DNA of 64,000 nucleotides from a virus (taxonomy: Duplodnaviria > Heunggongvirae > Uroviricota > Caudoviricetes): IMG/VR virus record IMGVR_UViG_3300045988_154997, positions 37,871-101,870 of that record, one strand, 5' to 3'. Positions 5,712 to 63,664 of the stretch are shown piece after piece. Each line of letters starts with the position of its first letter. Position 1 is the stretch's first letter. Under the pieces are notes generated by a model, which saw only the letters and a program-made list of their open reading frames with translations, was not told where the DNA came from and did not search any database. The translations under genes and the position numbers were made by a program.

Positions 5712-5713
5712 AG

Positions 5714-5895: not shown

Positions 5896-5899
5896 AGAG

Positions 5900-6276: not shown

Positions 6277-6280
6277 AATT

Positions 6281-6367: not shown

Positions 6368-6372
6368 TAAAT

Positions 6373-6654: not shown

Positions 6655-6711
6655 TTGTGAAAACAGGCACTAATGGCAACAGTGGTTAAACCTATACAAC
6701 AATCCTGTCTT

Positions 6712-6833
6712 CACAACGTTGAGGCCACTACTCCGATTGAATGTTTGCCCAACATGTTACATATCAACGCTCGCCGGTATCTCTGTGAATAGAACCTTAG
6801 AATTGATAAAAATGTAATGGCCTCAACGTTGTG
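6712..6833. repeat. long inverted repeat (15-bp arms CACAACGTTGAGGCC / GGCCTCAACGTTGTG, ~92-nt spacer)
   Basis: Read directly; arm sequence is related to the 5806-5895 IR. Confidence 0.5.
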
Positions 6834-6909
6834 TGCTGGCTAACCATACCAGCCGGGCTACGTCGCCGCTTTTTAACCCAGTATAAACGACATAATTGAA
6901 CAAAATGAC

Positions 6910-6989
6910 GTAACAGGATGGGCGGTCATTGGCTAAGAATCCGGGAGTCGTATATGAGTTGAAAATATACTGACCGCCCATTCTGTTAC
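6910..6989. repeat. inverted repeat (19-bp arms GTAACAGGATGGGCGGTCA / TGACCGCCCATTCTGTTAC, 1 mismatch)
   Basis: Read directly. A further 8-bp-stem hairpin (GAGGGAAC-TCTCAT-GTTCCCTC) follows at 6997-7018. Confidence 0.5.
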
Positions 6990-7193
6990 TTCATCGGAGG
7001 GAACTCTCATGTTCCCTCCTGCGTTCTGCAATCACACTCGCTCAGTGTGTCCCATTTCGGTAACGAGGCTGGAAACTGACCTCGCTGGTGTTTGGCTTAT
7101 TAGGCTACTGCCAGATAGACTTCTTCGTTTGCACTTGTATTTAAGTTCAAACAGTCGCGTCTCAACGAAAACAAAGTCATCTTATACATAAAA

Positions 7194-7219
7194 GATAGGT
7201 AAGTAAATACTTATTATTG
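7194..7219. promoter_or_regulatory. dispersed motif copy (GATAGGTAAGTA + TAAGTA-aa-TACTTA)
   Basis: Contains the reverse complement of TACTTACCTATC and a TAAGTA..TACTTA palindrome; just downstream of the gene ending at 7225. Confidence 0.35.
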
Positions 7220-7224
7220 TATTT

Positions 7225-7515
7225 TTATTCGGTTGTGACTTTTTTGATCAAGGCCACTCTACGACTAGGTGTTCTTGTGATGGTGGCAGTGAATTGTTTC
7301 GCTTGGATAGTAATGGTTTCGTTCTCCTTAAGTTGCCCGTAGCGAGTTTCCACCAGGGTGCCAAGACGCCACAGACCATCATCGATACGTTTATGACTAG
7401 CAAATTTAATCAGCAACAGTTTTACGACTAACTGACCTACGTAAAAGGCGAATGCGACTCCGGCCGCTAAGAAATAGGTGACCAACCACCATTCCCAAGA
7501 AGTTAACTTGCTCAT
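7225..7515 (-). CDS. small membrane protein (hypothetical)
   Basis: 96 aa with hydrophobic segment WEWWLVTYFLAAGVAFAFYVG; start overlaps the upstream stop as ATGA. Confidence 0.5.
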   Translation of the reverse strand: MSKLTSWEWWLVTYFLAAGVAFAFYVGQLVVKLLLIKFASHKRIDDGLWRLGTLVETRYGQLKENETITIQAKQFTATITRTPSRRVALIKKVTTE

Positions 7516-7664
7516 TTTTTCACCTTTGTTTCATGAACTACTCGATACACGCGCTTTCCGATGCACAGTGTTTTGGTTTTAAGTTCCTGCTTAATCAAAT
7601 CATGACAGATGCCGAAGCCGATAAGGAAGCCAGCCATAAAAGCCAATGAGATGTATGGAATCAT
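7512..7664 (-). CDS. small hydrophobic protein (50 aa; below the ORF-track size cutoff)
   Basis: Hand-translated MIPYISLAFMAGFLIGFGICHDLIKQELKTKTLCIGKRVYRVVHETKVKK; ATGA overlaps at both ends. Its start lies inside the 17-mer motif. Confidence 0.35.
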   Translation of the reverse strand: MIPYISLAFMAGFLIGFGICHDLIKQELKTKTLCIGKRVYRVVHETKVKK

Positions 7665-7876
7665 TTAAAGGCTCCTGATTCTACTAATTGCTGTAGCAAT
7701 AATTTCCCTTTATCAGTTAACTGGTAGTTGGCCGAGCGCCACGTTTCAGAAACGTTTGCAACCAACCCTAAACGCTCTAACTTAGCTCGCGTTTTAGGCT
7801 TCCAGTACTCAGGGAACTCCGGCCACTTACTTATTTCATGAAGCGTTTCTTTCTCCCGTTTACTTAATACGATCAT
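7661..7876 (-). CDS. hypothetical protein
   Basis: 71 aa ORF; start overlaps the ligase stop (7873-7876), translationally coupled. Confidence 0.45.
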   Translation of the reverse strand: MIVLSKREKETLHEISKWPEFPEYWKPKTRAKLERLGLVANVSETWRSANYQLTDKGKLLLQQLVESGAFK

Positions 7877-9195
7877 TCTTTATCTCCGATTCGATCTTCG
7901 GTATCGCGTAAGCAACGCGGCCATTTCAGTCGTGGGTGGCGTAAGCTGCCATCAGGTGTTTTCTCGTGACAATGAACCTCGACAATACGACCACGGTACT
8001 TCTCTTTGTTGTTCCAGATCTCGTCCAGATATTTATGCTTAATGCCGCTCGCACGAACGATGACGCCGTTTTCAAGACGAATAACAATTTTCCCAAGCGT
8101 GTTGGCAAAACCAGAGTCCGGGTCGCCCGGCTCAAAATCGATAATTTCACCATCTTCTGAATCTTCGTCTTTTAACTTCCACCAGCTGCGGGTACGTTTA
8201 AACTCGTAAACAGAGTTCGGATCTTTGCCCATCTCCCCTTCTTCGTTATCGTCCAGGCGTTTCATGAAGCGTTCGATGAAGTCTTCGTGGCTATGGATGA
8301 TGTAGAACGGATGCAGGTGAATGTCTTGTGCGTAGCCTTCACTGCGATCGTTTTTGAACAACGCCACGAGCATAGCCAGGCGCTCTTTCAGCTTCATACC
8401 TGTCTTTGCATACTCTTTGGATTTAGCCTGTGCTCGCCATTCCGGTAGGAAGAAGTCGAAAACATGATAAATAGCGCCAATTGCCTGCACGTTCTTTTTG
8501 CGCAATGCAGATACGGACTGGTTAAATGAACCGGCTGTGCCTTCACCATCGAAGAAGATGTGTTTGTGGCCTGAAAGTTTGCCTAATTCGAGCATGGCTG
8601 GCTTTAGGTGATCGAGAGACGTGATTGGATTACCAGTACGAGAAAGGAAGTTAACCTCTTCTTCGTCAACAATAACCTCGCAAATTACTCGCAAACCATC
8701 GAGCTTAAGGCTGCCAATCATCGGCCATTTTGCTTTAGGGTTTGGCTTGAAGGGGTATTTGTCGCCTTTTTCTTTATACGGTGACGCCAGCTGCACCTCG
8801 AATTTCGGAATGGGATTTTCAAAAACCTTGTTGCATAGGCTAATCCCAACGCCAGCTTTCGGATCTTTTAAGAGGAAACGACGGAAGACGTCCTGCCCAT
8901 CGGCGCACATTGACGCCACGATAGACTCAACAGCAGCTATTGCTGCGTTCCCCGTCAGCTCGCGAGAGGCCAGCTTATTCAGTACATCAATGGCTTTTTC
9001 GTCACTTGGGACGGACTCACTAAGCGGCTCTGCCACTTTGTATTTCTTTACCCCAAAACGGATGAAAGGGTTGAGCATCAATGAAACCATGCTTTGTTCA
9101 AAGTCATCCATGTTGGCCAATGCCTCTTTTTTTGCATTGGTTCCCATAGCTTTCATTTCGTCCAGCTTATGCTTAAGTGCGATCAACTTTTTCAT
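7873..9195 (-). CDS. ATP-dependent DNA ligase
   Basis: Adenylation motif I KLDGLR (SLKLDGLRVICEV); C-terminal GSLRHPRLKWPRCLRDTEDRIGDKE typical of ATP-dependent ligase OB-domain ends. Confidence 0.8.
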   Translation of the reverse strand: MKKLIALKHKLDEMKAMGTNAKKEALANMDDFEQSMVSLMLNPFIRFGVKKYKVAEPLSESVPSDEKAIDVLNKLASRELTGNAAIAAVESIVASMCADGQDVFRRFLLKDPKAGVGISLCNKVFENPIPKFEVQLASPYKEKGDKYPFKPNPKAKWPMIGSLKLDGLRVICEVIVDEEEVNFLSRTGNPITSLDHLKPAMLELGKLSGHKHIFFDGEGTAGSFNQSVSALRKKNVQAIGAIYHVFDFFLPEWRAQAKSKEYAKTGMKLKERLAMLVALFKNDRSEGYAQDIHLHPFYIIHSHEDFIERFMKRLDDNEEGEMGKDPNSVYEFKRTRSWWKLKDEDSEDGEIIDFEPGDPDSGFANTLGKIVIRLENGVIVRASGIKHKYLDEIWNNKEKYRGRIVEVHCHEKTPDGSLRHPRLKWPRCLRDTEDRIGDKE

Positions 9196-18009: not shown

Positions 18010-18369
18010 TTAACCTTTCTTCATCAACTCGCGTTTGATTTCATCGGTACGCATCGTGACGTCGGCAGCAGTGATCGCCTCGTTAAGTTTCACGATATCC
18101 TCGATTTCCTGCGGCGACTTCTCTGCCAGATGGAAAATAGCAGCACGAATCACATCAGAGCGGGTGAATTTCTCGAAGCGAGGGATGAACTTCATCATCT
18201 CCAGCAGTTCGAAGTATTCGTCTTCCAGTGACATTGTGCGGCTTTTAATTTTCTCTTTGCCACGAGTCGGGCGTCCCTGTGGTCTGACTGGTTGGCGCAA
18301 AGGAGTTGTGTTCTTAGCCGGTGCATCAGGCTCTTTGCGCTTTGCTAGGTCACCCATTTTCATGGACAT
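18010..18369 (-). CDS. small partition partner protein (ParG/ParB-like, putative)
   Basis: 119 aa, basic N-terminus then helical C-terminus; directly downstream of ParA with a 1-nt overlap, as in type Ib partition operons. Confidence 0.45.
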   Translation of the reverse strand: MSMKMGDLAKRKEPDAPAKNTTPLRQPVRPQGRPTRGKEKIKSRTMSLEDEYFELLEMMKFIPRFEKFTRSDVIRAAIFHLAEKSPQEIEDIVKLNEAITAADVTMRTDEIKRELMKKG

Positions 18370-19037
18370 TATTCTTCTTCCTCCAGACTCAACAGATAAT
18401 CTACAAATTCTTCAAACTCGGCTTCCGCCTTTTTGTCGCGCTCGCTACCGGTCATTTCAAAGATAGAACGACCAGACTCTTCCGCATCATCGTAGACGTT
18501 GCGGTTATATAGATTGACAGGCGCAGACTCGATGCCAAACGTCTCGACAATCTCTTTAGCCGCCAGAATGCGAGACACTTGTGATGGCAAAGCCGGGCAC
18601 TGGTTCATGACCGCGCGGACCTTCACTTTATCGTTTACATTGCGAACATTGTCGATAATAGGATCGATGTCACGTAAAGATTTCAAATCACGACGCTTAG
18701 GACGCAGCGGGATAATGATAACGTCAGCCATCAGCATCGCTTGTCGCTGAATTTCGGAGTCGAAGCCACCAGCATCTACCACTACATACTCAGCTCTACC
18801 CTGAAGCGATTTTAGGTGCTTAATGATGTCATCCTGAACGTATGCAAAAGGAATCAGCTCAAGGTCTTCGTTCTGTCGACGGTCTTCACACCAGCTCGTT
18901 GTCGTGCGCTGAATATCTATATCGGTGATATAAACCTTCTTCTTCTTTTTGACTTTCAGGCAAACGGCAATTTGCTGGGCAACGGTGGATTTGCCAGGCC
19001 CGCCCTTTGTGCCGCCAACCACAAAGATCTTGGTCAT
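18369..19037 (-). CDS. parA: ParA-family partition ATPase
   Basis: Deviant Walker A GGTKGGPGKST at the N-terminus, ~220 aa, acidic C-terminal tail. Confidence 0.8.
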   Translation of the reverse strand: MTKIFVVGGTKGGPGKSTVAQQIAVCLKVKKKKKVYITDIDIQRTTTSWCEDRRQNEDLELIPFAYVQDDIIKHLKSLQGRAEYVVVDAGGFDSEIQRQAMLMADVIIIPLRPKRRDLKSLRDIDPIIDNVRNVNDKVKVRAVMNQCPALPSQVSRILAAKEIVETFGIESAPVNLYNRNVYDDAEESGRSIFEMTGSERDKKAEAEFEEFVDYLLSLEEEE

Positions 19038-37800: not shown

Positions 37801-39463
37801 CGGTCGCCATCGTGGCAAAGGTGCTAACCATCTGGCTCCCAGCGCCAACTACCCCCATGATCCCTGCTCGCATCAGTTTGAACGCAACCATCGCGGCCAC
37901 GACCTTACCGAGATTAATTACCAGCTCTTGGTTCTTTGCTAACCATTGAGCAAGCTGACGCAACCCATCGATTGCCGTTGTTAACCCCGAACCTAAAGAA
38001 TTGGCAAACGAAATCCCTTCGGCGCTATTCATGATTGAAGCCAGTTCTTTCATCCCCTTCGATAGAGAATCCAGATATCCGGCCTGACCAACCCGATCAG
38101 CAAATAACGTGAATGACGTCTGAAGTTGCGCCAGCGCACCTGTGTAGGTTTGCATCATGTCTTTCGCTGCGTTCTCATTCTCCGCACGCAGACCAACAAA
38201 CATCAGAGACAACGCCTGTTTTGCCTCAACCGTACCGCTGGCAACGGCTTTAGTCAGTTCCCCCATAGTGATGCCTGCGGCGTCTGCCATTGCCTGCATC
38301 GCGTTAGGAACGGCTTCACCTAATTGCTGACGTAGCTCTTCCATTGACACAACGCCCTTACCGGACATCTGCTGAACGGCCACAGCCGCACGTTTCAACA
38401 GCTCACTATCACCACCAAAACGAGCAACGGAGTCCACCAGCGCCTTCAGAGAACCATCGGTTGGATCTAAGCCAGCAGAACGAAACTTCACGAAGGAGTC
38501 TGTTAACGCCTGCATCGCGAACGGCGCATTTTGAGCCATGTCTACGATGTACCTCATATCATCAGCGGCAGCCTGGCCCGGGTTGGACTTCTCCTTATTC
38601 AACCCTCGAAGCATCACCCGCATACGTTCCATTTCGGCCGCAGCTTCAACAATAGGCTTCTGCCACCCAAACATGATGTCAGTAACCGTTCTGGCTGCAT
38701 CTCCGATCTCGCCAAGCAGGAAAATGTTGCCACGAAGGCCAGAGAACATACCTCCTTCGTTACTTTTACCGCTATGGCCAGAAGCGCCGCTACGCCGCCC
38801 GCTACCACCATCGCCACTTCCAGATGTACGAACGCGTACCGGCTTGCTAATCAGTTGCTGACGTCCGATAACTTCGTCCATCTGCTCACGAACCTTTTTC
38901 AGTCCCTCGGCAGCCTGACTCGTTGTGACACCCCAATTACTGAGTCGCTTCGTCGTGGTATTAAGGCGCGTATTCATGCCACTCACGGACGCAGAGGCTT
39001 CTTTGACCTCCGTACCAAAGCGGCTTGCGCTTTTGCTTGCATAGGTCGCCCAATCAGAGAAATCATTTAGCTCTGATTGCACTTTACGTAATGACGCGGT
39101 GAGTTTATCTACTGAAGAAGTTGTCGTATCGACGCGCTCAATCAGGGCTTTAAGACCAGAATTGAGGCTGGTGATGTTGCCACGCATTTTACGCGTAGCA
39201 TCTGAAGCAAGCTCAAAACCGGCAGCTACATCCTGTAGTTTATCTGCCGTAGAATCGAGCTTGCTTTCCAGAACGCCAATGATACGGGCGACCGAACCCA
39301 AAGAGCGTTCAAAGGTTTGGATTTTTTGAGCAGGCTTTGTTACCTGCTCACCAAATCGAGTAAGCAGTTTCCCCGCACGATCGATTGACGCTGTAAACTG
39401 TTTGTCTTCCAGCGACAGGATAAACTCTACGTTTTGTGACATTCCCTTGTCATCCTCTGCCAA
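34889..39463 (-). CDS. H: tail tape measure protein
   Basis: 1524 aa, long helical/coiled-coil central region, hydrophobic Gly-rich segment; position between G-T and M. Confidence 0.85.
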   Translation of the reverse strand: MAEDDKGMSQNVEFILSLEDKQFTASIDRAGKLLTRFGEQVTKPAQKIQTFERSLGSVARIIGVLESKLDSTADKLQDVAAGFELASDATRKMRGNITSLNSGLKALIERVDTTTSSVDKLTASLRKVQSELNDFSDWATYASKSASRFGTEVKEASASVSGMNTRLNTTTKRLSNWGVTTSQAAEGLKKVREQMDEVIGRQQLISKPVRVRTSGSGDGGSGRRSGASGHSGKSNEGGMFSGLRGNIFLLGEIGDAARTVTDIMFGWQKPIVEAAAEMERMRVMLRGLNKEKSNPGQAAADDMRYIVDMAQNAPFAMQALTDSFVKFRSAGLDPTDGSLKALVDSVARFGGDSELLKRAAVAVQQMSGKGVVSMEELRQQLGEAVPNAMQAMADAAGITMGELTKAVASGTVEAKQALSLMFVGLRAENENAAKDMMQTYTGALAQLQTSFTLFADRVGQAGYLDSLSKGMKELASIMNSAEGISFANSLGSGLTTAIDGLRQLAQWLAKNQELVINLGKVVAAMVAFKLMRAGIMGVVGAGSQMVSTFATMATAIQTPFNLGATAVTRFNRAARMGLAPIPSLIFAIRGAITGLKGAFAGLTAFIAANPIGAAFTVATVAVAGLITYMTMLRSETSKVVDEIRKIPEAMTAAKRAQMADRAEKLEKQILADQRALKNGEGVNYVSNSAGVITHKESKADIEARLKKNQEEYQKITGTIALGDGAVAKRLAKEAAESQIEKIRAENQIFAATFVKARQEALDKIQKINDDGSLSDDEKNKLLAPLRETVNKSYLEPAQKLVDSLSSRKNATEKQIATLNDQLEKAKKDGNTEQIQKLQGSIRGYQEHLEAVAQELTQAEFERDNAAKTGKGVMSNQGTVLGLGTTDKAAQKALAQYMRNQMDSATYQRTLPDGTPMMDFEGKPIIGPKQLKTQLNLQKASSASSLEKMSDEERAAAIAALTKAREQDAAAAEKAAQRSANASQRAAKKEQAAQQKLAAGYQKALDKADQLMGQMGESSKATVSFDQSLRDTTKSLTDLANAVPNEFITQEMIDKAKKRLEDLKNATPEYREMFNRRNVEQMISTWAPEADSIISAGYTPSREDKVADFEGTYNRNLKALIELRDKASDPKVVALYTKKINQLIAAGNTALIKETGTATQKLALEYENLAEQIENTWTDLFSGLTDALTDFVINGKMSFSSLSQSILKDITNMVVKSQITLPLMNMLGMGTTAAGSSQSGNLLTGVASAVANQGVRMGNTVNGDKSVGEATKETSSSVTGLGQTTQQTTSAIGTATNAIGSWVSGLFDSTEAKDAETKAVKDSIFSMQNLSSVTGALSAAFAMLGANASGSGNKWLSFGATVASGLVSAWAGGGFDSVTSSSAKTATSSVADGTKGIPAIPKFANGGIFGKDGVIPLRAYQKGGIANSPQLALFGEGSMNEAYVPLPDGRTIPVTLSTDGMSGGGNVLSPVSIEINVHSDGSTTESGDTESIWNNAAQRMKAIALETIAQEKRPGGSLNPNTQRN

Positions 39464-47975: not shown

Positions 47976-47990
47976 TTACTTACCTATCGA
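47976..47990. promoter_or_regulatory. dispersed motif copy TTACTTACCTATCGA
   Basis: In the 26-nt gap between the terminase large subunit and the portal. Confidence 0.35.
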
Positions 47991-49240
47991 GAACCACCAA
48001 GAATAACACGGTTTTTGACTGGATACCTACGATGTACTGGATAGCCCAATGCGTCTGCACTATGCTCAATGCCACCTGTCTTATCCATATCTCGTGTTCC
48101 AGGCTTGTAGATGACTTTTTCCAGTGAATCAATCAAATGCTTGCACTTCGGATCGATATACAGCCGGATATCTCCAGATGCGGACATCAGCATTCGGTTA
48201 ACAGCATTAACACGATCCGCAATTGGCGGGTGCTTTTTCGAATAATCGACACGTAAGAATCCCTTCTCTTTGAATATGTCTACGTCAGACTCCCCACGAG
48301 CATGTTGGCGATAAGCACCTGCCGGATCTGGAAATACCGTTACCTGTGATTTCCAGCGCCAGAAGCGTCTCTCAAGCTCATCACAAACTTCTGCCGTGTT
48401 AGAGGAAAAGAGCACCAATTCATCAATTGCCCATAGCTCACCATTTGGCTGAGGTTGCAAAATTACTGAAGACATCGGGTCAATGTTGAAGTCCTGCCCT
48501 ACCCATATAGGCAACCGAGGGTTGAACTGAAGCGGTTTTACATGCACGTTACGATCGAACGGGTAGTAAACGCGCCCGGACATGTTCTCAAAGCTGGCCA
48601 GGTACTCCTGAGCGAACGATTTGGGGTCCATATCGTTCTTAGCAGCTTCAATTTCCGCCGTAGGTACAAACGGAGAATCGGCAGTTACAAACTGCCAGCT
48701 CTTCCACTGTCCCTTTCTTTGCAGCTCTACGTTCTGGCCTATAGTCCACAGTTTGTGAAATTCCGAGAAGCCTTTTGGCGTACCAATGATCAGTGCACCG
48801 CCGCGTGTCGATGAAAGAGTAGGTCGTAACACCTTGTACCAGGTGTCAGCCTTCATATCCTGAAATTCATCAAGCACTACAAAATGCAACGCTACGCCGC
48901 GCAGAGTGTCAGGCTTATCAGCACCTTTGAGGGCGATCTCCGAACCGTTCTTCAACACGATTGTCATCGTGGTGTCGTTCTTTTTCCTAACCCACTTACG
49001 AGGCAGAACTTCCTGTAGATCGTCCCATAAAATCTGGCGAGCCATCTGGTAAGTAGGAGCGACATACCAGACCCTTTGCTTTTTTTCCTTTGCCGCCGCA
49101 CGAATAATAGTGGAGATCGACAACCGGGATTTTCCCCAGCGTCGACCAGCACAAACAACTTTAAATCGATGCGGAGACTGGAAGACTTTCATCTGTCCAG
49201 AATGCAGTTGCACAAGACTGAGCGAGGACGGGATTGCCAT
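47984..49240 (-). CDS. terminase large subunit
   Basis: Walker A VVCAGRRWGKS, Walker B VVLDEF; C-terminal nuclease-sized domain. Confidence 0.85.
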   Translation of the reverse strand: MAIPSSLSLVQLHSGQMKVFQSPHRFKVVCAGRRWGKSRLSISTIIRAAAKEKKQRVWYVAPTYQMARQILWDDLQEVLPRKWVRKKNDTTMTIVLKNGSEIALKGADKPDTLRGVALHFVVLDEFQDMKADTWYKVLRPTLSSTRGGALIIGTPKGFSEFHKLWTIGQNVELQRKGQWKSWQFVTADSPFVPTAEIEAAKNDMDPKSFAQEYLASFENMSGRVYYPFDRNVHVKPLQFNPRLPIWVGQDFNIDPMSSVILQPQPNGELWAIDELVLFSSNTAEVCDELERRFWRWKSQVTVFPDPAGAYRQHARGESDVDIFKEKGFLRVDYSKKHPPIADRVNAVNRMLMSASGDIRLYIDPKCKHLIDSLEKVIYKPGTRDMDKTGGIEHSADALGYPVHRRYPVKNRVILGGSR

Positions 49241-49872
49241 TATTCGTCCTCCCCTTCACTTCCATCATCTGTCGCATCAAATTCGCTTAGAGCTTCTTCT
49301 TCCAACGTCTCAAGCAATTCGTCATCGATGATTTCAGGCTCGTCGTCTTCCTGACGTAATTTCGCCACCTGGGAAGGCGTAAGCTCACCAAATACCAGGT
49401 TCGGAATTTCTTCCTCGTCATTTTCCGCATGATCCATGCCCAATGCTTTGGACGAAACTTCAAAGCATTTTGCAAGGGTATTACTGGCTCTCTGTAAGCT
49501 CTTGAGAGAATCCTCAATCGCCCCTAAAGGCTTACCCTCACGTTTGGCCGTAGTGACTTCGACCATCACCATCTGCCCCAACGCATACGCCCAGCCGTCA
49601 TAACGTGTACGACGTTCTTCTATCTTTTCCGCACGGGCTTTAGCGCGAAGCTCTGCGTCAGATTTAAGAGACTCACGAACCATCTTCCCAACAGAGTCCG
49701 CGCCTTTCTCTAATCCTCGCTTTTTGAAATGTCTGGAGAGTGTTTCACGACGAATGCCGTACTCTTCCTCCAGCTTTGAGAGTGTATATTCGCCTGACGT
49801 CCATTTGGCTTCAGCTTCGGCCCACTCCGCTGGTGTCAGGCGAGTTTTTACCTCGTCTTTTTCGACCGTCAT
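49240..49872 (-). CDS. terminase small subunit (putative)
   Basis: 210 aa, N-terminal HTH-like YTLSKLEEEYGIRRETLSRHFKKRG, acidic C-terminus; start of the large subunit overlaps its stop. Confidence 0.6.
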   Translation of the reverse strand: MTVEKDEVKTRLTPAEWAEAEAKWTSGEYTLSKLEEEYGIRRETLSRHFKKRGLEKGADSVGKMVRESLKSDAELRAKARAEKIEERRTRYDGWAYALGQMVMVEVTTAKREGKPLGAIEDSLKSLQRASNTLAKCFEVSSKALGMDHAENDEEEIPNLVFGELTPSQVAKLRQEDDEPEIIDDELLETLEEEALSEFDATDDGSEGEDE

Positions 49873-58550: not shown

Positions 58551-59033
58551 TTACACGCCATCAAGGATGTGGATGCGGTTGCTTGCGTATACATTCAGCA
58601 TAAAGTTAGCGCAAAACAGTTTCCATGTATCAACGCCAGCGGTATACGTAATGTTTTTGCATTTAATTGCATTGTTGGCGATCCGCATCCCCTGCGATAC
58701 TGCTTCATCGTCGGAAAATTTGAACGACGATTGAGTTTTAATCCAGACAGAAATCTGCGTAGCGAACTCAATCAGCTTGGACTGGCAGAATCGCCCGGAG
58801 CGCACCGGAAAGACGAACGTTCCGAATCCAGAATTTACCACATACGCTTTCTCAAATACCCGCGAGTAACGACGATTGCCAATGATGTCGCGTGCAATAA
58901 TGCATTTTTCTTGTGCTGACAGTTCTACCGTCTCATTGTCGCGCCATGCACCAAGTACTCGTTTTTCAATGTCAGAGAACGTTACAGCGATATTGCCATG
59001 TGCGGGTGCGTTTACAGTAGCGATAAAATTCAT
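58551..59033 (-). CDS. hypothetical protein
   Basis: 160 aa ORF flanked by a promoter-like element upstream and a terminator hairpin downstream. Confidence 0.5.
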   Translation of the reverse strand: MNFIATVNAPAHGNIAVTFSDIEKRVLGAWRDNETVELSAQEKCIIARDIIGNRRYSRVFEKAYVVNSGFGTFVFPVRSGRFCQSKLIEFATQISVWIKTQSSFKFSDDEAVSQGMRIANNAIKCKNITYTAGVDTWKLFCANFMLNVYASNRIHILDGV

Positions 59034-59044
59034 GATTAATTCCT

Positions 59045-59077
59045 TATCGTAAATAACAAATTGTTTTCTTGTTGGTG
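59045..59077. promoter_or_regulatory. conserved promoter/operator element (AACAAATTGTTTTCTTGTTGGTGTTAATTATCG)
   Basis: Best-preserved copy. On the minus strand reads TTAACA-N17-TGTTAT with palindrome AACAATTTGTT in the spacer, then AAGGA and ATG. Confidence 0.5.
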
Positions 59078-59119
59078 TTAATTATCGTTGTACGAATAAG
59101 GCGTCAAAGTGGAAAGTTG

Positions 59120-59208
59120 CGGTAGCCGGACGGGAACAGGTGGGTTTGTCGGTTGCCTGGAGGTAAGAGGTTGGTGTTTTTAGCCTGCGGGAAACAGGAT
59201 GGTCATTT
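59120..59208. repeat. three tandem ~31-bp repeats (CGGTAGCCnGG-N-GAGGTgGG-TTTT family)
   Basis: Same family recurs as two tandem copies at 62295-62357. Confidence 0.5.
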
Positions 59209-59228
59209 AAGGCCATCAATGCTGATGG

Positions 59229-59381
59229 CCTTAATAATTATCGACCGATTACGCTAAGGATCTTTTCCTCAACTGATTTGTTGTTGCGACTAAACTGCCT
59301 TGCGTATCTGATGACAGAAGAGGCGTTTTGCTTTCTGACCATCTCGGCTCTTTCCTTCAGGCGTTTCTTGAAATCGCCCAT
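59229..59381 (-). CDS. small basic protein (50 aa; below the ORF-track cutoff)
   Basis: Hand-translated MGDFKKRLKERAEMVRKQNASSVIRYARQFSRNNKS...; GGTGG upstream of the ATG; hairpin 59201-59224 downstream. Confidence 0.3.
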
Positions 59382-59383
59382 AT

Positions 59384-59758
59384 TTACCACCAGGCGCAGA
59401 AGGTCAGTCTGTTATTGTGAAAGTCGTGGTTCCTGATCAGGTCTTCCACAAGTTTTTTCAGCTTATCCACGTCATGCCAGTAACCTTCGTCGTACTCCTG
59501 ACTGCCGAAGAAAAAACCTTCCCGAGTAGGCAAGTACTCTTCGCAATTGCTTTCGTTTATGTGCATCAAATGAGCTTTCAGAAGACAAATGTCATTCATC
59601 GTTAATTCTAAAAGCTCACAATTTTCGACTTCACCTACGTTGCGCTCCATCCACCCAACGAGCGCATTGAACTTACGGAAGTAAGCAACCTGCTTTCTGG
59701 ATGCCTCGTTATTCAGATCGTTTTTAGGCTGTGTCTCGATATAGATATCAAGTCCCAT
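59384..59758 (-). CDS. hypothetical protein
   Basis: Start placed at MGLDIYIE (59758) with AAGGA 7 nt upstream; the track start 59800 is GTG. Confidence 0.45.
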   Translation of the reverse strand: MGLDIYIETQPKNDLNNEASRKQVAYFRKFNALVGWMERNVGEVENCELLELTMNDICLLKAHLMHINESNCEEYLPTREGFFFGSQEYDEGYWHDVDKLKKLVEDLIRNHDFHNNRLTFCAWW

Positions 59759-59805
59759 GATGGTTTCCTTATTAAGTTGCTTCAGTGAAATCATTTTCAC
59801 AAATC

Positions 59806-59826
59806 AGATAAGGCAGAAAACAAATT
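59806..59826. promoter_or_regulatory. conserved promoter/operator element (GAAAACAAATTGTTATCGGGC)
   Basis: Copy of the AACAAnTTGTT element upstream of the 59384..59758 gene. Confidence 0.4.
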
Positions 59827-59832
59827 GTTATC

Positions 59833-59857
59833 GGGCATAATAAAATGGCGCGGTTTA
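59833..59857. terminator. rho-independent terminator (AAATGGCGCG-GTTTA-CGCGCCATTT), minus strand
   Basis: Perfect hairpin with T-rich tail on the minus strand, downstream of the stop at 59876. Confidence 0.6.
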
Positions 59858-59875
59858 CGCGCCATTTAAAGAGGA

Positions 59876-60271
59876 TTAAGCGAATACGCTTTCAGGGATT
59901 AAGGTGTCGGCAGGAATGCCAGAGGTAATGCGCAGACCGTACTGGCCAATCCAGGTGGTGCTGGTGTTCAGGCTGGAGGCGAATACGGTGTTAACCATAT
60001 TCATCATGGTTTCAAACACCTCTTCATCAACCTGGCGGAAGTAGTTCTCGATTTTCAGCAGCAGCGGGTCAGTTGCATCGAGAATGGACTGGTATTGAGT
60101 CGCGTACTCGCCGCCGGAGGCGTCACCTTTACGCACGATCGTACTGGCCTGGACTTCGGCACCAGTTTCGGTGTTGTACGTAACAACGGTAATTTTTGCC
60201 ACATTCTTACCTTCGGCGGTTTCAGAGGCATAGTAAACATCAACTGTCAGTTTTTCGCGTTTAACGGTCAT
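59876..60271 (-). CDS. hypothetical protein
   Basis: 131 aa ORF between a terminator and an upstream palindromic motif. Confidence 0.5.
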   Translation of the reverse strand: MTVKREKLTVDVYYASETAEGKNVAKITVVTYNTETGAEVQASTIVRKGDASGGEYATQYQSILDATDPLLLKIENYFRQVDEEVFETMMNMVNTVFASSLNTSTTWIGQYGLRITSGIPADTLIPESVFA

Positions 60272-60314
60272 TTCACTCTCCGTAGTGTATTGGTTATTTT
60301 TCTATTCTATGATC

Positions 60315-60330
60315 GTAAGTATGTACTTAC
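60315..60330. promoter_or_regulatory. dispersed motif copy GTAAGTA-tg-TACTTAC
   Basis: Near-perfect palindrome ~45 nt upstream of the 59876..60271 gene start. Confidence 0.4.
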
Positions 60331-60340
60331 AATACAAAAA

Positions 60341-60363
60341 AGCCCCGTAAGGATGGCGGGGCT
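60341..60363. terminator. rho-independent terminator (AGCCCCG-TAAGGATGG-CGGGGCT), minus strand
   Basis: Hairpin followed by TTTTTT on the minus strand, downstream of the stop at 60398. Confidence 0.6.
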
Positions 60364-60397
60364 GTCGTACGGTCGACTAATTACCACTTGCACATTA

Positions 60398-60708
60398 TCA
60401 GGCTATTGCCATCACTGATGCTCTCTGAATCTCTTGCTGGGCCACGCGGTTAACTTCCATCAAAGCCAGTTCGAGCTGATGTTCCGGCCACATTCTTTGA
60501 AATGCCACCCAGCCTTTTCCACGCTGGCGACGAACATTCATTACATAACGAGTAAAGGTGTTTTTATCGAAAGACACCGCTGTTTCACGGAACAGACGAA
60601 TAGAGGTCCCATTGGCAACGATGTCCAGCAAAGTTAATTGAGCAACCAGTGCAGGCTTCTCTTTTCTCTTCTGGTCTTTGTCCAGACCAAGAACCAATGA
60701 TTTTTTCA
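60398..60708 (-). CDS. hypothetical protein
   Basis: Start placed at MKKSLVLG with GGAG 6 nt upstream; the track start 60739 would overlap the promoter element. Confidence 0.45.
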
Positions 60709-60721
60709 TCACAACTCCGTA

Positions 60722-60750
60722 AACAACTTGTTTTCTCAATGGCGTAAATA
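60722..60750. promoter_or_regulatory. conserved promoter/operator element (AACAACTTGTTTTCTCAATGGCGTAAATAAT)
   Basis: Copy of the AACAAnTTGTT element directly upstream of the 60398..60708 gene. Confidence 0.45.
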
Positions 60751-60862
60751 ATACCAGTAAGAAAACGGCTACAAAGCATATTGATCAGGTGCATGAGCTA
60801 TATGCAGGTTCTTCCCTGCGGCTATAGAGAAATTAAGCCAGCAATGCTGGCTTTGGTTGGGG

Positions 60863-61213
60863 TTACTCGAATACTTCAAGAAACTCCTGAACGTCCCAAT
60901 GCTGGACGAGGTGAAGATAGACCTTAGAAATCACGTCATTTTCGCTATCGCATGTGAAGTAGTACTTCTGGCTGCGGTTGTATGTGTCCACACAAAATTC
61001 GCTCATATCCATAAAGTCAGCATCTTCACCCATGTCGCAAATCATCAAAGCAGGTGCGTCATCACGAGTCATCAGCTCAAGCACCCACCGCGAATTGATC
61101 AGAGTGGAAGACCAACCTTCTAACTCATAAAACTGATCAAACTCTTTTTGAGTTAATTTCTTGATTTGGTTGATGTCGATATTTGCAAACATAAAGCAAT
61201 CCTTAAACAACAT
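60863..61213 (-). CDS. hypothetical protein
   Basis: 116 aa acidic ORF; start possibly at the internal MFANIDINQ (61192). Confidence 0.4.
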   Translation of the reverse strand: MLFKDCFMFANIDINQIKKLTQKEFDQFYELEGWSSTLINSRWVLELMTRDDAPALMICDMGEDADFMDMSEFCVDTYNRSQKYYFTCDSENDVISKVYLHLVQHWDVQEFLEVFE

Positions 61214-61236
61214 GTTTTCTTGATGGTGTTATTATC
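61206..61236. promoter_or_regulatory. conserved promoter/operator element (AACAACATGTTTTCTTGATGGTGTTATTATCG)
   Basis: Copy of the element at the 5' end of the 60863..61213 gene. Confidence 0.45.
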
Positions 61237-61555
61237 GCAATAACGCACAGGCGAAAAAGGATTTTATTCCGGTGAATGTGGTTTTGGCAGTGAGTTTTCA
61301 GGTTCAGTACCGAGTACACTTTTTACATTATTCTGATTTAGTGGCCGAAAGTGGCTGGTGGGCAGAATAATCCTCTCCCCGAAAACCTACTGAAATCGAT
61401 TGTGACCCGTTGGCTGTCTGGCACAATTACGCTGTAGCTGGGCATTCAGAGGGAATCCAGCGGTAAGCAAGTCCGCCTGCACGTGAGCGCCTCTCTTCTT
61501 CCCGCACATTACAGGTGGGTAGCCGCAACTCTCCCTCTCGCTATACCGGTACGCC

Positions 61556-61690
61556 GCCGTTCCTGAACCGGCATCGAGCCTTTTCCCGAAATCCACACAG
61601 GCAACTCGACCGTTTCCCTGAAAACCTCCAGCCGTACCCCGAAGGCAACCCAGCCGTTTCTGTAGCGGGATGCAGCCTTTTCCCTGTATG
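61556..61690. repeat. iteron-like direct repeats, array B (6 copies of GCCGTTTCCCTG-type 10-mer at ~22-bp spacing)
   Basis: Copies start at 61556, 61578, 61609, 61631, 61653, 61675; spacing 22 bp (one 31-bp gap). Confidence 0.6.
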
Positions 61691-61899
61691 GACCGAAGGC
61701 TGACCGTAGGGGTGTTACGGGGGATAAAATCAGGAGTTGAATAAATACGAAAAAGGAGGCGACACCCCTCCTTCCCTCCCGACTTATACATACCTGGCTT
61801 CTTCGCTATACATGTTGTGTTTTCTTCGTGTTTTATCTGTTTCAACCTCTCTATAGGCGTTAATGCTCACTCCTTCCAGAACGTTCTATACGGCGACTA

Positions 61900-62520
61900 T
61901 TTCTGTTGGTGAATTGGGTGTGTTGTTTTCTCTGTCGGTGTATGTGGTTTCGTTAGTTTTGCGGTGGTTCTTCTATGGGGTGTTCTCGTCGTTTTGGTGA
62001 TTGTTCTTCTCCGTCTATGGAGTAATGGCAGGTGGGCGATTGCTTTCGTTATTGTGTTTGAGTTGTTTGTCTGGAGTGTGTGAAAGGCTTTTGTAGTTAT
62101 TCGTGTATTGGGTAATGGCGTTTCCCGTGATTGTTATGTTTCGTGTCTTTTGGGATTGAGAGAAACCTTGCGGTTACAGGCTTCGTTGGGGTTTCAGTGA
62201 TTCTGGTGTTTCTTCGCTGTTTGGGTAATGGCGTGTCGTGGGTATCGCGCGTATGAATGTTTTCGGATTGCCTGTGAAAGTTAGGTTGGTTGTCCGGTAG
62301 CCTGGGGAGAAGAGGTGGGTCTTTTCGGTAGCCTGCCATAAAGAGGTTGGCTGTTTTGGGTAATGGCATATGTGTTATTTAGTTGTTTTGTTATGCCTGA
62401 AAATAAGTTGTTTATATGTTTGTGTAACGCAACGGGAACGATTTTGAGCGTGTGTTTTTGTTGGTAGTGTGTTGGGTCGTCTGTGGTGAAAATTGGACGC
62501 TGTGGCGCTGTCTGCTGCGT
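61900..62520. repeat. G+T-rich strand-biased non-coding region with internal repeats
   Basis: Plus strand almost only G and T; GGGTAATGGC recurs at ~62111, ~62223, ~62359; two tandem 31-bp repeats at 62295-62357; no credible ORF. Confidence 0.5.
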
Positions 62521-62756
62521 AGAATTACGGGTATAAGCAGTGATGTGTGAAAACGTCAATTTTTTAGACCAAATCGGGTGAAAGCGTTGATGTTTCGTTG
62601 ATCTGTTATTCAGTTGTTTTCTTGATTGTATAAACAACTATAACTTATTGATATTTAAGGATGTGATTGCGGGTATGGAAGGAGAGTAGTGGCGATCAAC
62701 GGATTCTTATAGAAAAGAATCAAATTGTGACCGCCATTATCAATGAGTTGCAACCG

Positions 62757-63326
62757 TTAGTTGTTCAGATAAACATTTGGAACACGGACGTAGAAGTTCC
62801 TGTCGCCGGTAAGTTCCAGAGTAATGTTAATGTCATTACCATTGTCTAGTGTAGCCGTTGCTCTATAGAACTTATCCGTCACCTTGTCCTCTATTGTCAC
62901 CTTCATACATTTTGGTGCAGTCGAACCGTTATTCTCTTTCAGAATAGTTGTCACGAGAGGGCAGGCTGCTTCTTCAAGAGCAACCTCGTCCTTGTGTGGG
63001 ATGCCGATGAAGATAATCCAAGCCAGCGACGCAACGATTATGATAAATGGCACTCTGCTGCCTTTTGTAATAGTCGCGCGCTTCCAGAGATAGACAGGCA
63101 GGAGGAATACCCCCCATAGAATTGAAGGTGGTTCACAGCCAGACTCCGATAGAGCCATTCTGTCAGCTACTAACAAACCGATGGTAGTTACACCCCCAAT
63201 TATAATAGCGTAATTGGTATACTCTTCCGGCGATACTCCAAAGAAGAAAGGCATGAACGCTAGAATCCACGCATAAATGTTATTCAGAGGTTTTGTTTGT
63301 TGGTTCTGGGTTTCCATCACATCCAT
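62757..63326 (-). CDS. membrane protein (hypothetical)
   Basis: 189 aa with several hydrophobic segments (IYAWILAFMPFFFGV, IIIGGVTTIGLLV, ILWGVFLLPVYLW, FIIIVASLAWIIFIGI). Confidence 0.5.
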   Translation of the reverse strand: MDVMETQNQQTKPLNNIYAWILAFMPFFFGVSPEEYTNYAIIIGGVTTIGLLVADRMALSESGCEPPSILWGVFLLPVYLWKRATITKGSRVPFIIIVASLAWIIFIGIPHKDEVALEEAACPLVTTILKENNGSTAPKCMKVTIEDKVTDKFYRATATLDNGNDINITLELTGDRNFYVRVPNVYLNN

Positions 63327-63478: not shown

Positions 63479-63664
63479 TTAGATGAGATGGTCTAATTCA
63501 TCATCTATCATTGCTTTAACACTTGAGTCATTAACCCCGTATTGATTTATGAACCGTTTCAGCTCCGGTGAAAACTGAAGGTAGATATCGTGAGCGTTTT
63601 TCACTGTAGGTTCAACGCCACGCATTTCAAGCGCCTTTAGTAGATATGAGTCTTCTTTAAGCAT
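63479..63664 (-). CDS. small hypothetical protein
   Basis: 61 aa ORF; no motif. Confidence 0.3.
   Translation of the reverse strand: MLKEDSYLLKALEMRGVEPTVKNAHDIYLQFSPELKRFINQYGVNDSSVKAMIDDELDHLI

What the first reader, a model, noticed from the sequence alone, without database searches (positions are those of the whole stretch)
61900..62520. ~600-bp G+T-rich strand-biased non-coding region with repeats
The plus strand here is almost devoid of A and C. It contains recurring GGGTAATGGC motifs and two tandem 31-bp repeats that are paralogous to three copies at 59120-59208. The ORFs the track calls here are low-complexity artefacts. Such extreme strand asymmetry outside coding sequence is unusual; it could be a packaging or replication site, a non-coding RNA, or a recombination hotspot.
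Basis: seen in the sequence. Interest (0 to 1): 0.6.

Follow-up and report, generated by a model that had tools for sequence, protein, structure and literature searches.

The report
Conserved strand-skewed non-coding element, SSU5 phage-plasmids
A roughly 0.7-kb stretch with 74% G+T on one strand is a real, non-coding element under strong selection, found in essentially all SSU5-type phage-plasmids of enterobacteria; its function is unknown, and it is probably a repressor-controlled untranslated transcript or a protein-binding DNA site used in the phage cycle.

Summary
Window 61880-62520 is 74% G+T on the + strand, about 7 SD from the mean and unique in the window and in the whole 112.6-kb replicon. 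"Almost devoid of A and C" overstates it: A+C is 26%. The window is an SSU5-like phage-plasmid, 100% identical to E. coli pYLPM7a and 98% to phage Cyrano.

The stretch is not coding and not a structured RNA. It is not a G-quadruplex and not the plasmid RepA origin. It occurs in 836 plasmid records, about one per terminase gene in each enterobacterial genus. The skew persists down to 61% identity. Sequence identity (60-74%) far exceeds four-fold-site identity (33-48%).

The element carries same-orientation GTAATGGC units, three phased 31-bp repeats and a palindromic operator. A conserved promoter-like site points into it and a weak hairpin lies at the far end.

Published RNA-seq shows no transcript in lysogens. 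Yersinia pMT1 has lost the region and is still maintained as a plasmid.

Best guess (0.38): a repressor-controlled, untranslatable, structure-free A/C-rich early transcript. Main rival (0.30): a protein-binding DNA array such as a lytic origin. No description of it was found in the papers searched.

The parts
61880..62520 (-). Core skewed domain (D). It is 74% G+T on the + strand, so a leftward transcript would be about 40% A, 30-33% C, 12-16% G and 14-15% U.
   Evidence: Composition. Conserved skew in 22 lineages. Non-coding. Purifying selection.
62007..62034 (+). Long-form repeat unit 1, TTCTCCGTCTATGGAGTAATGGC. The consensus in relatives is GTTCTTCTCCGTGTATGGAGTAATGGC.
   Evidence: family D6; family D1.
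62097..62124 (+). Long-form repeat unit 2, ending in GGGTAATGGC.
62210..62237 (+). Long-form repeat unit 3, ending in GGGTAATGGC.
62352..62367 (+). Short-form GGGTAATGGC unit. Relatives carry 2 to 6 GTAATGG units, and two present in most relatives have been lost in this window's lineage.
62264..62356 (+). Three phased units of about 31 bp, GGTAGCCTG-N7-GAGGTGGGT. The first copy is degenerate. This is among the best-conserved blocks of the element.
59120..59208 (+). Paralogous cluster of three units of about 30 bp. It lies between a hairpin (59205-59235) and the promoter of the 160-aa gene, and it is retained in pMT1. It also holds the largest C-over-G excess of the window for a leftward RNA.
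62399..62414 (.). Palindromic operator GAAAATAAGTTGTTTA. The same motif lies next to predicted -10 boxes in front of several minus-strand genes elsewhere in the window.
62370..62392 (-). Operator-like module, 87% identical to the module at 62601-62623.
   Evidence: family D12.
62530..62559 (-). Promoter-like site P1 pointing into D. The -35 is TTGACG (62554-62559), the spacer is 18 bp and the -10 is TATACC (62530-62535).
   Evidence: Present at the same alignment column in 21 of 21 lineages, mean score 7.3 bits. Block conservation.
62587..62640 (.). Back-to-back partner region. In 19 of 21 relatives it carries a rightward TTGACT-16-TTTATT site, which is degenerate in this window. It overlaps a decayed copy of the early promoter/operator module on the minus strand.
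61750..61776 (-). Hairpin followed by a U-run at the far end of the skewed domain. It looks like a good intrinsic terminator in the E. coli lineage and is weaker in other lineages.
   Evidence: One search gives a consensus of -4.9 kcal/mol with 2 of 9 pairs showing compensatory changes.
62691..62735 (.). Invariant 8-bp inverted repeat, GGCGATCA ... TGACCGCC, with 29 nt between the arms. Homology between lineages ends just to its right, where the cargo island begins.
61260..61750 (.). Variable spacer, C-rich on the + strand. It carries a Chi site at 61354 and a direct repeat spaced about 97 bp apart. It tolerates an extra ORF in the pHCM2 and Enterobacter lineages and an IS100 insertion in pRHB27-C18_3.

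Best explanation
The skewed domain is most likely the body of a repressor-controlled, non-coding early transcription unit of the phage-plasmid, read leftwards on the minus strand.

Proposed mechanism:
1. When lysogenic repression is lifted, transcription starts at the conserved promoter-like site at 62530-62559, and possibly also at the decayed early-promoter module at about 62600-62640.
2. It runs about 0.75 kb and ends at the hairpin/U-run at 61750-61776, or earlier.
3. The product is an A/C-rich, G/U-poor RNA that can hardly fold and has almost no start codons. It would therefore stay naked and single-stranded.
4. Such an RNA is a natural loading substrate for Rho. It also displays its repeated linear motifs (GCCAUUACYC units and three 31-nt units) for a protein or nucleic-acid partner.
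5. I propose it acts as an attenuating or insulating leader, or as a decoy, between the variable cargo island and the early lytic genes.

Shown here: the region is non-coding, structure-poor, strand-skewed and under sequence-level selection. The skewed domain also lies between the promoter-like site and the hairpin.

Inferred only: that transcription occurs, that Rho is involved, and what the partner is.
For: - The skew is a strand-level property, which a double-strand binding site does not require. Conserved alignment columns are 74.6% G+T and variable columns are still 62%.
- The skew survives in 22 non-redundant lineages, down to 61% identity.
- The minus-strand RNA folds at only -76 kcal/mol for 646 nt, against -159 kcal/mol for the + strand. 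Neither strand beats its shuffles.
- Start codons occur at 4.6 per kb in the minus-strand RNA, against 52.8 per kb for the window. C exceeds G continuously from 61877 to 62758.
- No coding signal: period-3 ratio is at most 2.3, against 6-15 for a control gene.
- The only conserved sigma-70-like site directed into the domain is TTGACG-18-TATACC on the minus strand, present in 21 of 21 lineages.
- A hairpin with a U-run closes the domain at 61750-61776. The skew begins and ends at about these two points.
- An operator palindrome shared with several promoters of minus-strand genes lies inside the unit. This fits the zero FPKM seen in lysogens.
- The paralogous 31-nt cluster at 59120-59208 is the strongest C>G bubble of the window. 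It sits after an operon's terminal hairpin, the classical place for a Rho-dependent terminator.
Against: - No transcript has been seen. CYRAN_103 (window 62281-62637) is at the detection floor in LB. It stays low (log2 2.7-4.3) in the other conditions, where the neighbouring early gene CYRAN_105 rises to log2 7.8.
- P1 scores only 7.3 bits and lacks the -7 T.
- The hairpin is weak outside the E. coli lineage.
- YC dimers are only mildly enriched: 12.0 per 100 nt against 9.7 for that strand. Shine-Dalgarno-like words are not depleted.
- A rut function alone would not explain why more than half of the columns are at least 90% conserved.
- The 31-bp units keep a spacing of about three helical turns, and one cluster lies upstream of a promoter. 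Both features suit DNA-binding proteins.
- The possible Acinetobacter counterpart is A/G-rich rather than A/C-rich.
Confidence: 0.38

Rival explanations
1. The element is a cis-acting DNA site built from one-orientation arrays of protein-binding repeats and used only in the phage cycle. The most likely version is a lytic replication origin activated by transcription from the adjacent repressor-controlled promoter, in the manner of P1 oriL or lambda ori. A phage protein would bind the GTAATGGC and 31-bp units and help load the phage DnaB-like helicase and primase.
For: - It is unique in the replicon.
- It has two repeat families in a single orientation, with copy number varying between lineages.
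- The 31-bp units are spaced about three helical turns apart in both clusters.
- Sequence-level constraint is as strong as or stronger than in the neighbouring genes.
- AT-rich operator patches and a divergent promoter pair lie beside it.
- It is silent in lysogens.
- It is present in all enterobacterial SSU5-type phage-plasmids but absent from pMT1, which also lacks the phage helicase and primase.
- An Acinetobacter relative has a 1.3-kb gap in a comparable place, with six 34-nt direct repeats.
- The element encodes its own replisome and an RNase HI.
Against: - No binding protein has been identified.
- The element is about 47 kb from the helicase/primase genes, with no initiator gene next to it.
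- Spacing of the GTAATGGC units is irregular and not conserved: 90 and 113 bp here, 93 and 135 bp in pHCM2.
- No significant T-tract phasing.
- A double-strand binding array does not explain why nearly all conserved positions, across several unrelated motifs, are G or T on one strand.
- The small genes flanking the Acinetobacter gap are not homologous, so the synteny is only coarse.
Confidence: 0.3
2. The element is the partition centromere for the type Ib ParA (window 18369-19037) and its 117-aa partner, which have no repeat array next to them.
For: - The ParA-like ATPase matches AAA_31, MipZ, CbiA and the NCBIfam ParA_partition model.
- Its partner has a weak hit to a small cell-cycle regulator family, aCcr1. 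That this family is ribbon-helix-helix is from my own knowledge.
- No repeats flank the operon.
- pMT1 lacks both the element and this ParA, and carries a P1-type parAB instead.
Against: - The element is 43 kb from the par operon.
- Its units are long and irregularly spaced. By my own knowledge, known type Ib centromeres are contiguous short repeats.
- Both the ParA hit (115 bits against a cut-off of 180) and the partner hit are below their curated cut-offs.
- A centromere should not need strand skew.
- The dispersed palindrome upstream of parA is an alternative candidate.
Confidence: 0.1
3. The element is the packaging recognition site (pac or cos), bound by the small terminase subunit.
For: It is a unique, repeat-rich non-coding site, as pac and cos regions are. 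A Chi site lies 0.5 kb to its left, in the orientation that would stop RecBCD entering from a cut inside the element (the orientation rule is established knowledge).
Against: - The terminase genes are 12 kb away with many genes between. By my own knowledge, pac and cos sites of known phages lie in or beside the terminase genes.
- None of 12 phage records starts or ends here.
- At 650 bp it is several times longer than the pac and cos sites I know of.
- Chi is over-represented across the whole element, so the nearby site is not special.
Confidence: 0.06
4. The element is a relic with no function of its own. It would be decayed tandem copies of the G/T-rich early promoter/operator module, or a product of mutational strand bias such as deamination of a strand that is often single-stranded.
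For: - The canonical promoter/operator module is itself G/T-rich on the + strand.
- The context of the GCCATTAC units loosely resembles that module (my own reading).
- Variable columns are also skewed, at 62% G+T.
Against: - Identity of 60-74% compares with 33-48% at four-fold sites of adjacent genes.
- 350 columns are at least 90% conserved, and these are more skewed than the variable ones.
- The element is retained in 836 records across at least seven genera.
- G<->T differences are not in excess over what the composition predicts (observed fractions; the expectation is my own arithmetic).
Confidence: 0.07
5. The region encodes one or more proteins, for example the ORFs annotated in phage Cyrano as CYRAN_103 and CYRAN_104, or a small hydrophobic + strand peptide.
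For: Cyrano and PhiR41_1 annotate hypothetical proteins here. The + strand frame from about 61905 is open in several lineages.
Against: - There is no period-3 pattern of variability: at most 2.3, against 6-15 in a control gene.
- All three minus-strand frames are open because of composition, and the open frames differ between lineages.
- Indels that break the frame occur in the Klebsiella lineages.
- No PHROG family matches.
- PGAP annotates nothing here in the RefSeq plasmids examined.
- Expression is 0 FPKM.
Confidence: 0.02

Closest known systems
Rho-dependent terminators and untranslated rut-containing leaders (for example lambda tR1 rutA/rutB, or the leader region of the P1 immI operon)
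   Same: The predicted RNA is C-rich, G-poor, unstructured and untranslated. It lies downstream of a regulated phage promoter and upstream of lytic genes. The small paralogous cluster at 59120-59208 sits after an operon end.
   Different: This element is 0.65-0.85 kb long, against roughly 80-150 nt for a rut site. It is A-rich as much as C-rich. It is conserved at the sequence level and has repeated motifs. Transcription and Rho dependence have not been shown.
Iteron-type origins and control arrays of phages and plasmids (lambda ori, P1 oriL, oriR and incA, R6K gamma)
   Same: It consists of arrays of same-orientation direct repeats in a unique non-coding site, with a nearby controlled promoter and AT-rich patches.
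   Different: The repeats are unrelated to the RepA iterons of this replicon. No initiator gene is adjacent. Spacing is irregular. No DnaA boxes were looked for. The strand skew extends far beyond any DNA-unwinding element I know of.
Protein-sponge RNAs with repeated linear motifs (CsrB/RsmZ, CrcZ)
   Same: It would be a long non-coding RNA whose repeated short motifs are displayed in single-stranded form.
   Different: There are no GGA or A-rich CA motifs, and no (ARN)n enrichment. The RNA is not expressed in the lysogenic state. No partner is known.
Partition centromeres made of direct repeats (F sopC with 12 x 43 bp, and type Ib parH/parC sites)
   Same: It is a one-orientation repeat array on a low-copy plasmid prophage that carries a type Ib ParA.
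   Different: It is far from the par operon, its units are not contiguous, and it is dispensable in pMT1, which has a different par system.
Large phage-associated structured RNAs (GOLLD, ROOL)
   Same: Similar size class and an association with phages and prophages.
   Different: Those RNAs are intricately folded. This sequence shows no fold signal on either strand and has no Rfam match.

Membership tests
Rho-dependent terminator / rut leader | A C>G bubble of at least about 80 nt in the transcript | tested here: met
   The minus-strand RNA is about 30-33% C and 12-16% G. The excess is continuous from 61877 to 62758.
Rho-dependent terminator / rut leader | Untranslated and poorly structured RNA | tested here: met
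   No coding signal. Start codons at 4.6 per kb against 52.8 per kb. MFE of -76 kcal/mol for 646 nt with z = -1.3.
Rho-dependent terminator / rut leader | Enrichment of YC dimers | tested here: inconclusive
   12.0 per 100 nt, against 9.7 (same strand) and 12.3 (other strand) as window averages.
Rho-dependent terminator / rut leader | The region is transcribed in that direction, and termination is sensitive to bicyclomycin or rho mutations | not testable with these tools
   Only a conserved promoter-like site is available. Published lysogen RNA-seq shows 0 FPKM.
RepA iteron origin or incA-like handcuffing array | The repeats match the replicon's Rep iterons | tested here: not met
   The RepA iterons are TATGCTGYCAGCGGT, at record positions about 112.3-1.7 kb. 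There are no shared repeats, only one chance 10-mer.
RepA iteron origin or incA-like handcuffing array | Adjacent to the rep gene | tested here: not met
   repA lies about 33 kb away, outside the window.
Phage lytic origin | A direct-repeat array with an adjacent AT-rich stretch and a promoter | tested here: inconclusive
   Repeats and a promoter-like site are present. The AT-rich patches coincide with the operator modules. No phasing was found.
Phage lytic origin | Supports replication, or shows a copy-number peak, during lytic growth | not testable with these tools
   This needs marker-frequency sequencing or a cloned-origin assay.
pac/cos packaging site | Located in or beside the terminase genes | tested here: not met
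   TerS and TerL are at window 47984-49872, 12 kb away.
pac/cos packaging site | Virion DNA ends map to the site | not testable with these tools
   No phage record starts or ends here, but record starts are arbitrary.
Type Ib partition centromere | Contiguous short repeats next to the par operon, bound by the partner protein | tested here: not met
   The element is 43 kb from parA and its units are spaced 41-142 bp apart. Binding was not testable.
Structured non-coding RNA (any Rfam family) | A covariance-model match, or a fold more stable than shuffles | tested here: not met
   No Rfam hit at gathering threshold. The best match at E<=5 was a 19.8-bit chance hit outside the domain. Fold z-scores were -1.3, +0.6 and +0.9.
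G-quadruplex-forming region | Four G-runs of at least 3 within short loops | tested here: not met
   No G3+ motif with loops of up to 12 nt.
Type III toxin-antitoxin RNA array (ToxI-like) | Near-identical tandem repeats between a promoter and a terminator, directly upstream of a toxin gene | tested here: not met
   The units are only 65-81% alike. At 59120 they lie upstream of the promoter, and no toxin-like ORF follows.
Hfq-binding (ARN)n sponge | Enrichment of A-R-N triplet runs | tested here: not met
   Counts are at or below the shuffle means.
Protein-coding gene | Period-3 substitution pattern and a conserved reading frame | tested here: not met

The most novel reading that the evidence does not exclude
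SSU5-type phage-plasmids may make, only after derepression, a 0.75-kb RNA selected to be free of structure and of start codons. Its repeated linear motifs (GCCAUUACYC and three 31-nt units) would capture a host or phage factor, for instance by trapping Rho or another single-strand RNA-binding protein. That would make it a new class of phage decoy RNA defined by composition rather than by fold. An equally novel alternative is an origin-type site that is read at the single-strand level over hundreds of bases.
Probability: 0.15. Interest if true: 0.8.

Novelty: new variant of a known kind. Interest (0 to 1): 0.6.

Why it matters
SSU5-type phage-plasmids (pHCM2 of S. Typhi, pLF82/Cyrano and many Klebsiella, Enterobacter and E. 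coli plasmids) are common in clinical Enterobacteriaceae. They carry resistance and defence cargo. Their lysis-lysogeny control, lytic origin, packaging site and centromere do not appear to have been mapped.

This element is the most unusual non-coding sequence in the replicon. It is at least as constrained as the proteins next to it. It sits exactly where the exchangeable cargo island meets the early lytic genes.

Finding what it does would assign one of the missing cis functions of the family. It would also test whether base composition of a single strand can itself be the selected trait in a bacterial mobile element.

Tried and rejected
- Rfam, at gathering threshold and at permissive E-values: nothing relevant.
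- Single-sequence folding of both strands and of the neighbouring GC-rich spacer: no signal.
- Coding tests: rejected.
- RepA iterons or an incA-like array: rejected after locating repA and its iterons.
- G-quadruplex: rejected.
- Hfq ARN sponge: rejected.
- Intrinsic curvature or T-tract phasing: not significant.
- Tandem Repeats Finder on pHCM2: no array reached the score threshold.
- Chi cluster or RecA-loading island: Chi is enriched across the whole plasmid in mixed orientation, and no Chi lies inside the domain. Also, the G/T island is on the side of the nearest Chi that RecBCD would degrade, by the established orientation rule.
- Cumulative GC skew of the whole plasmid: it follows gene orientation and gives no origin signal.
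- Substitution-type test for selection on G/T identity: uninformative at this divergence.
- Genome-wide scan for the 31-bp motif: only SSU5-type elements plus chance hits.
- Large Klebsiella plasmids that carry part of the element: these are IS-truncated hitch-hikers of the adjacent DUF262/type I R-M island, so they are not independent evidence.
- Single-protein search for distant loci: returned only close relatives.
- Homology between the small early proteins here and the Acinetobacter locus: none found.
- Pfam, NCBIfam, PHROGs and PDB searches of neighbouring proteins: no informative function.
- Literature searches: no description of the element was found, and one 2026 preprint could not be opened.
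Full report
WHAT THE WINDOW IS. The 1.5 kb around the finding is 100% identical to E. coli plasmid pYLPM7a (NZ_CP073997.1; window position = record position minus 16850). It is 98% identical to phage Cyrano, the SSU5-like phage-plasmid of E. coli LF82. Nearly all genes run on the minus strand. The finding lies in a 1.56-kb gap that PGAP leaves unannotated. To its left is a block of small minus-strand genes of unknown function (58551-61213). To its right is a variable cargo region.

THE OBSERVATION.
- Window 61900-62520 is A 13.8%, C 12.2%, G 33.0%, T 40.9%.
- The highest G+T fraction over 600 nt is 0.74, starting at 61889. The window mean is 0.500 and the SD is 0.033.
- GC skew is +0.40 to +0.53 and AT skew is -0.32 to -0.65 from 61800 to 62600.
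- In the complete 112.6-kb plasmid the next most skewed 400-nt window reaches only 60%, against 75.8% here.
- RGTAATGGC occurs four times on the + strand inside the region, with 0.77 matches expected in the whole window.
- The two 31-bp units and their three paralogues at 59120-59208 are real. A third, degenerate unit precedes them at about 62264.
- "Almost devoid of A and C" is too strong.

IT IS NOT CODING AND NOT A FOLDED RNA.
- Because the minus strand is poor in T and G, all three of its frames are open. The open frames differ from lineage to lineage.
- Variability along the alignment has no three-base periodicity. The ratio is at most 2.3 across 61200-62750, against 6-15 for the neighbouring gene 59876-60271 in the same taxa.
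- The ORFs that phage Cyrano annotates here match no PHROG family.
- Rfam gives nothing.
- Neither strand folds better than its shuffles: z = -1.3 and +0.6 for the domain, and +0.9 for the GC-rich spacer.
- There is no G-quadruplex motif.

IT IS CONSERVED AND UNDER SELECTION.
- The domain is found in 836 plasmid records, all from Enterobacteriaceae: Klebsiella 428, Escherichia 224, Enterobacter 90, Salmonella 49, Citrobacter 25, Cronobacter 9 and Shigella 7.
- These counts match the terminase-gene counts for the same genera almost one to one.
- It is also in 12 phage records, including SSU5 itself.
- Twenty-two non-redundant lineages, down to 61% identity, keep 62-74% G+T.
- Identity between this lineage and the others is 60-74%. 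Adjacent genes are 47-97% identical at the nucleotide level, mostly 47-73%, and only 33-48% at four-fold sites (apart from one near-identical E. coli relative).
- 350 alignment columns are at least 90% conserved. These are more skewed (74.6% G+T) than the variable columns (62%).
- So the asymmetry belongs to the constrained sequence and is not a mutational by-product.

ANATOMY.
- Left part: three long units, consensus GTTCTTCTCCGTGTATGGAGTAATGGC, interspersed with short GGGTAATGGC units. Relatives carry 2 to 6 GTAATGG units, and this lineage has lost two that most relatives keep.
- Next: three phased units of about 31 bp, GGTAGCCTG-N7-GAGGTGGGT. This is among the best-conserved blocks.
- Next: a palindrome, GAAAAYAANTTGTTTA, at 62399. 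The same motif lies next to predicted -10 boxes in front of several minus-strand genes elsewhere in the window. It is presumably the operator of a prophage repressor, but that is an inference.
- Next: a conserved block at 62510-62640 with back-to-back promoter-like sites. Leftward TTGACG-18-TATACC is present in 21 of 21 lineages. Rightward TTGACT-16-TTTATT is present in 19 of 21 and is degenerate in this window.
- Right edge: an invariant 8-bp inverted repeat at 62691-62735. Homology between lineages stops just beyond it, where the cargo begins.
- Left edge: a hairpin with a U-run on the minus strand at 61750-61776. It is convincing in the E. coli lineage and weak elsewhere, with 2 of 9 pairs showing compensatory changes.
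- The spacer from 61260 to 61750 is variable and tolerates insertions.

WHAT IT IS NOT.
- Plasmid origin. repA lies about 33 kb away at the record start, with at least 14 iterons (TATGCTGYCAGCGGT), a DnaA-box-like sequence and a GATC cluster. Those iterons are unrelated to the repeats here.
- Packaging site. The terminase genes are 12 kb away, and no phage record begins or ends at the element.
- Plasmid maintenance in general. Yersinia pestis pMT1 is syntenic, but an IS1541 now occupies the place of the segment holding the element. Sixty-two Yersinia records have the terminase gene and none has the element. The caveat is that pMT1 carries a foreign P1-type parAB and has also lost the phage helicase, primase and type Ib ParA. 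Its evidence therefore cannot separate a lytic function from a centromere.

EXPRESSION DATA.
- Values come from the LF82 transcriptomes (PMC9928086, supplementary table, log2(FPKM+5)).
- The ORF covering window 62281-62637 on the minus strand is at the detection floor in both LB replicates.
- It stays at log2 2.7-4.3 in the other conditions, while the early gene just downstream of the element rises to log2 7.8.
- The cargo gene immediately upstream is expressed at about 50-64 (FPKM+5).
- So no abundant RNA is made in lysogens, and transcription coming from the cargo side stops before the element.
- Nothing is known for full lytic growth.

WEIGHING THE MODELS.
- The central fact is that several unrelated conserved motifs, and the variable positions between them, all avoid A and C on the same strand for about 700 bp. 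Proteins that read double-stranded DNA do not require this. A function exerted by one strand does.
- The simplest such function is a transcript.
- The only conserved promoter-like site that points into the domain lies at its right edge. A hairpin with a U-run lies at its left edge. The skew starts and stops at about these two points.
- The resulting RNA would be about 40% A and 30% C. It would have one eleventh of the usual start-codon density and half the folding energy of its complement.
- That describes a naked, untranslatable RNA, which is what Rho loads on, and which would display its repeated motifs in single-stranded form.
- The small paralogous cluster at 59120-59208 is the sharpest C>G bubble of the window. 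It sits just after an operon's terminal hairpin, which suits the same reading.
- Against this model: no transcript has been seen, the promoter is mediocre, and YC dimers are barely enriched. Composition alone would not conserve the sequence this well. A specific partner for the repeats therefore has to be assumed.
- The main rival is a protein-binding DNA array for a phage-cycle function, most plausibly a transcription-activated lytic origin. It explains the sequence conservation, the uniqueness, the three-turn phasing of the 31-bp units, the silence in lysogens and the loss in pMT1.
- An Acinetobacter relative (TerL 59% identical) offers limited support for that rival. In a comparable position it has a 1.3-kb gap with six 34-nt direct repeats and the strongest purine and A>T skew of its 41-kb locus. 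Its flanking small genes are not homologous, however.
- The rival does not explain the skew, and neither a binding protein nor an adjacent initiator gene is known.
- I put the RNA model at 0.38 and the DNA-array or origin model at 0.30. The centromere is at 0.10, a relic at 0.07, pac/cos at 0.06 and coding at 0.02.

NOVELTY. I found no description of this element in the papers searched. It matches no RNA family. Whichever model is right, it probably belongs to a known functional category. Even so, a 0.7-kb, sequence-conserved, strand-skewed, repeat-bearing non-coding element at the cargo/early-gene junction is an unusual variant and deserves an experiment.

Noticed in passing
window 15046, 19074, 49914, 49939, 54897, 59055, 59816, 60722, 61206, 62399: The palindrome GAAAACAANTTGTT gives 20 matches at up to 2 mismatches, against 3.8 expected. 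Several copies lie next to predicted -10 boxes in front of minus-strand genes, including the parA-like gene. It looks like the operator set of a global repressor. A candidate is the XRE protein at 242-628, which is CYRAN_45 in Cyrano and is expressed in lysogens.
   Followed up: partly
whole window; for example 61354-61361 (+), 58382 (-), 58507 (+): Chi (GCTGGTGG) occurs 13 times in the window against 1.3 expected, and 21 times in the 112.6-kb plasmid. Orientation is mixed (9 on + and 12 on -), so there is no clear polarity switch.
   Followed up: partly
window 18010-19037 (-): This is a type Ib partition pair. The 222-aa ATPase hits ParA-type models, and the 117-aa partner has a weak, sub-threshold hit to the aCcr1 small-regulator family. 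No repeat array lies nearby, only one copy of the palindrome upstream. The centromere of these phage-plasmids is therefore unassigned.
   Followed up: partly
window 62691-62735: An invariant 8-bp inverted repeat (GGCGATCA ... TGACCGCC, 29 nt apart) marks the exact point where homology between lineages ends and the variable cargo island begins. The cargo differs between lineages: DUF262 plus type I R-M, DUF4942, or other genes. There is no covariation, so it could be a protein or recombination site rather than an RNA hairpin.
   Followed up: partly
window 59043-59244: The paralogous triple repeat of about 30 bp has the largest C-over-G excess of the whole window for a leftward RNA. It sits between a hairpin without a U-run (59205-59235) and the next promoter, and it is retained in Y. 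pestis pMT1.
   Followed up: partly
window 63479-63664 (-): This 61-aa protein has a weak, sub-threshold Pfam hit to the T7 gp5.9 RecBCD inhibitor (E = 0.006; 16.9 bits against a cut-off of 24.5). That is of some interest given the Chi enrichment.
   Followed up: no
L109 (A. baumannii pDETAB1) 6453-7779: This non-coding gap in a distant relative holds six 34-nt direct repeats, TAGAAATNTAGAAAYCTATNTAGATAGATA. It also has the strongest purine and A>T skew of the 41-kb locus, and it lies in a position comparable to the element studied here.
   Followed up: partly
L082 (Y. pestis pMT1) about 37884-38751: In pMT1 an IS1541 occupies the place of a segment of about 30 kb that holds the skewed element, the cargo island and the nucleotide-metabolism genes.
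   Followed up: partly
window 61260-61750; L004 and L007 2605-2847; L058 39774-41575: The C-rich spacer to the left of the element is an insertion-tolerant zone. It holds an extra + strand ORF in the pHCM2 and Enterobacter lineages and an IS100 in pRHB27-C18_3. It also has a direct repeat at 61551-61587 and 61648-61684, 78% identical.
   Followed up: no
L002 (K. pneumoniae IncFIB/HI1B plasmid) 4717-8335: The right part of the element, together with the DUF262 and type I R-M island, has been copied into large Klebsiella plasmids at 98% identity. The fragment is cut off on its left, apparently by an insertion sequence.
   Followed up: partly
pYLPM7a record about 112300-1700 (outside the window): The plasmid replicon lies here: a RepA gene flanked by at least 14 TATGCTGYCAGCGGT iterons, a DnaA-box-like sequence and a GATC-rich stretch. 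The gene crosses the record start and is therefore missing from the PLSDB gene table.
   Followed up: yes
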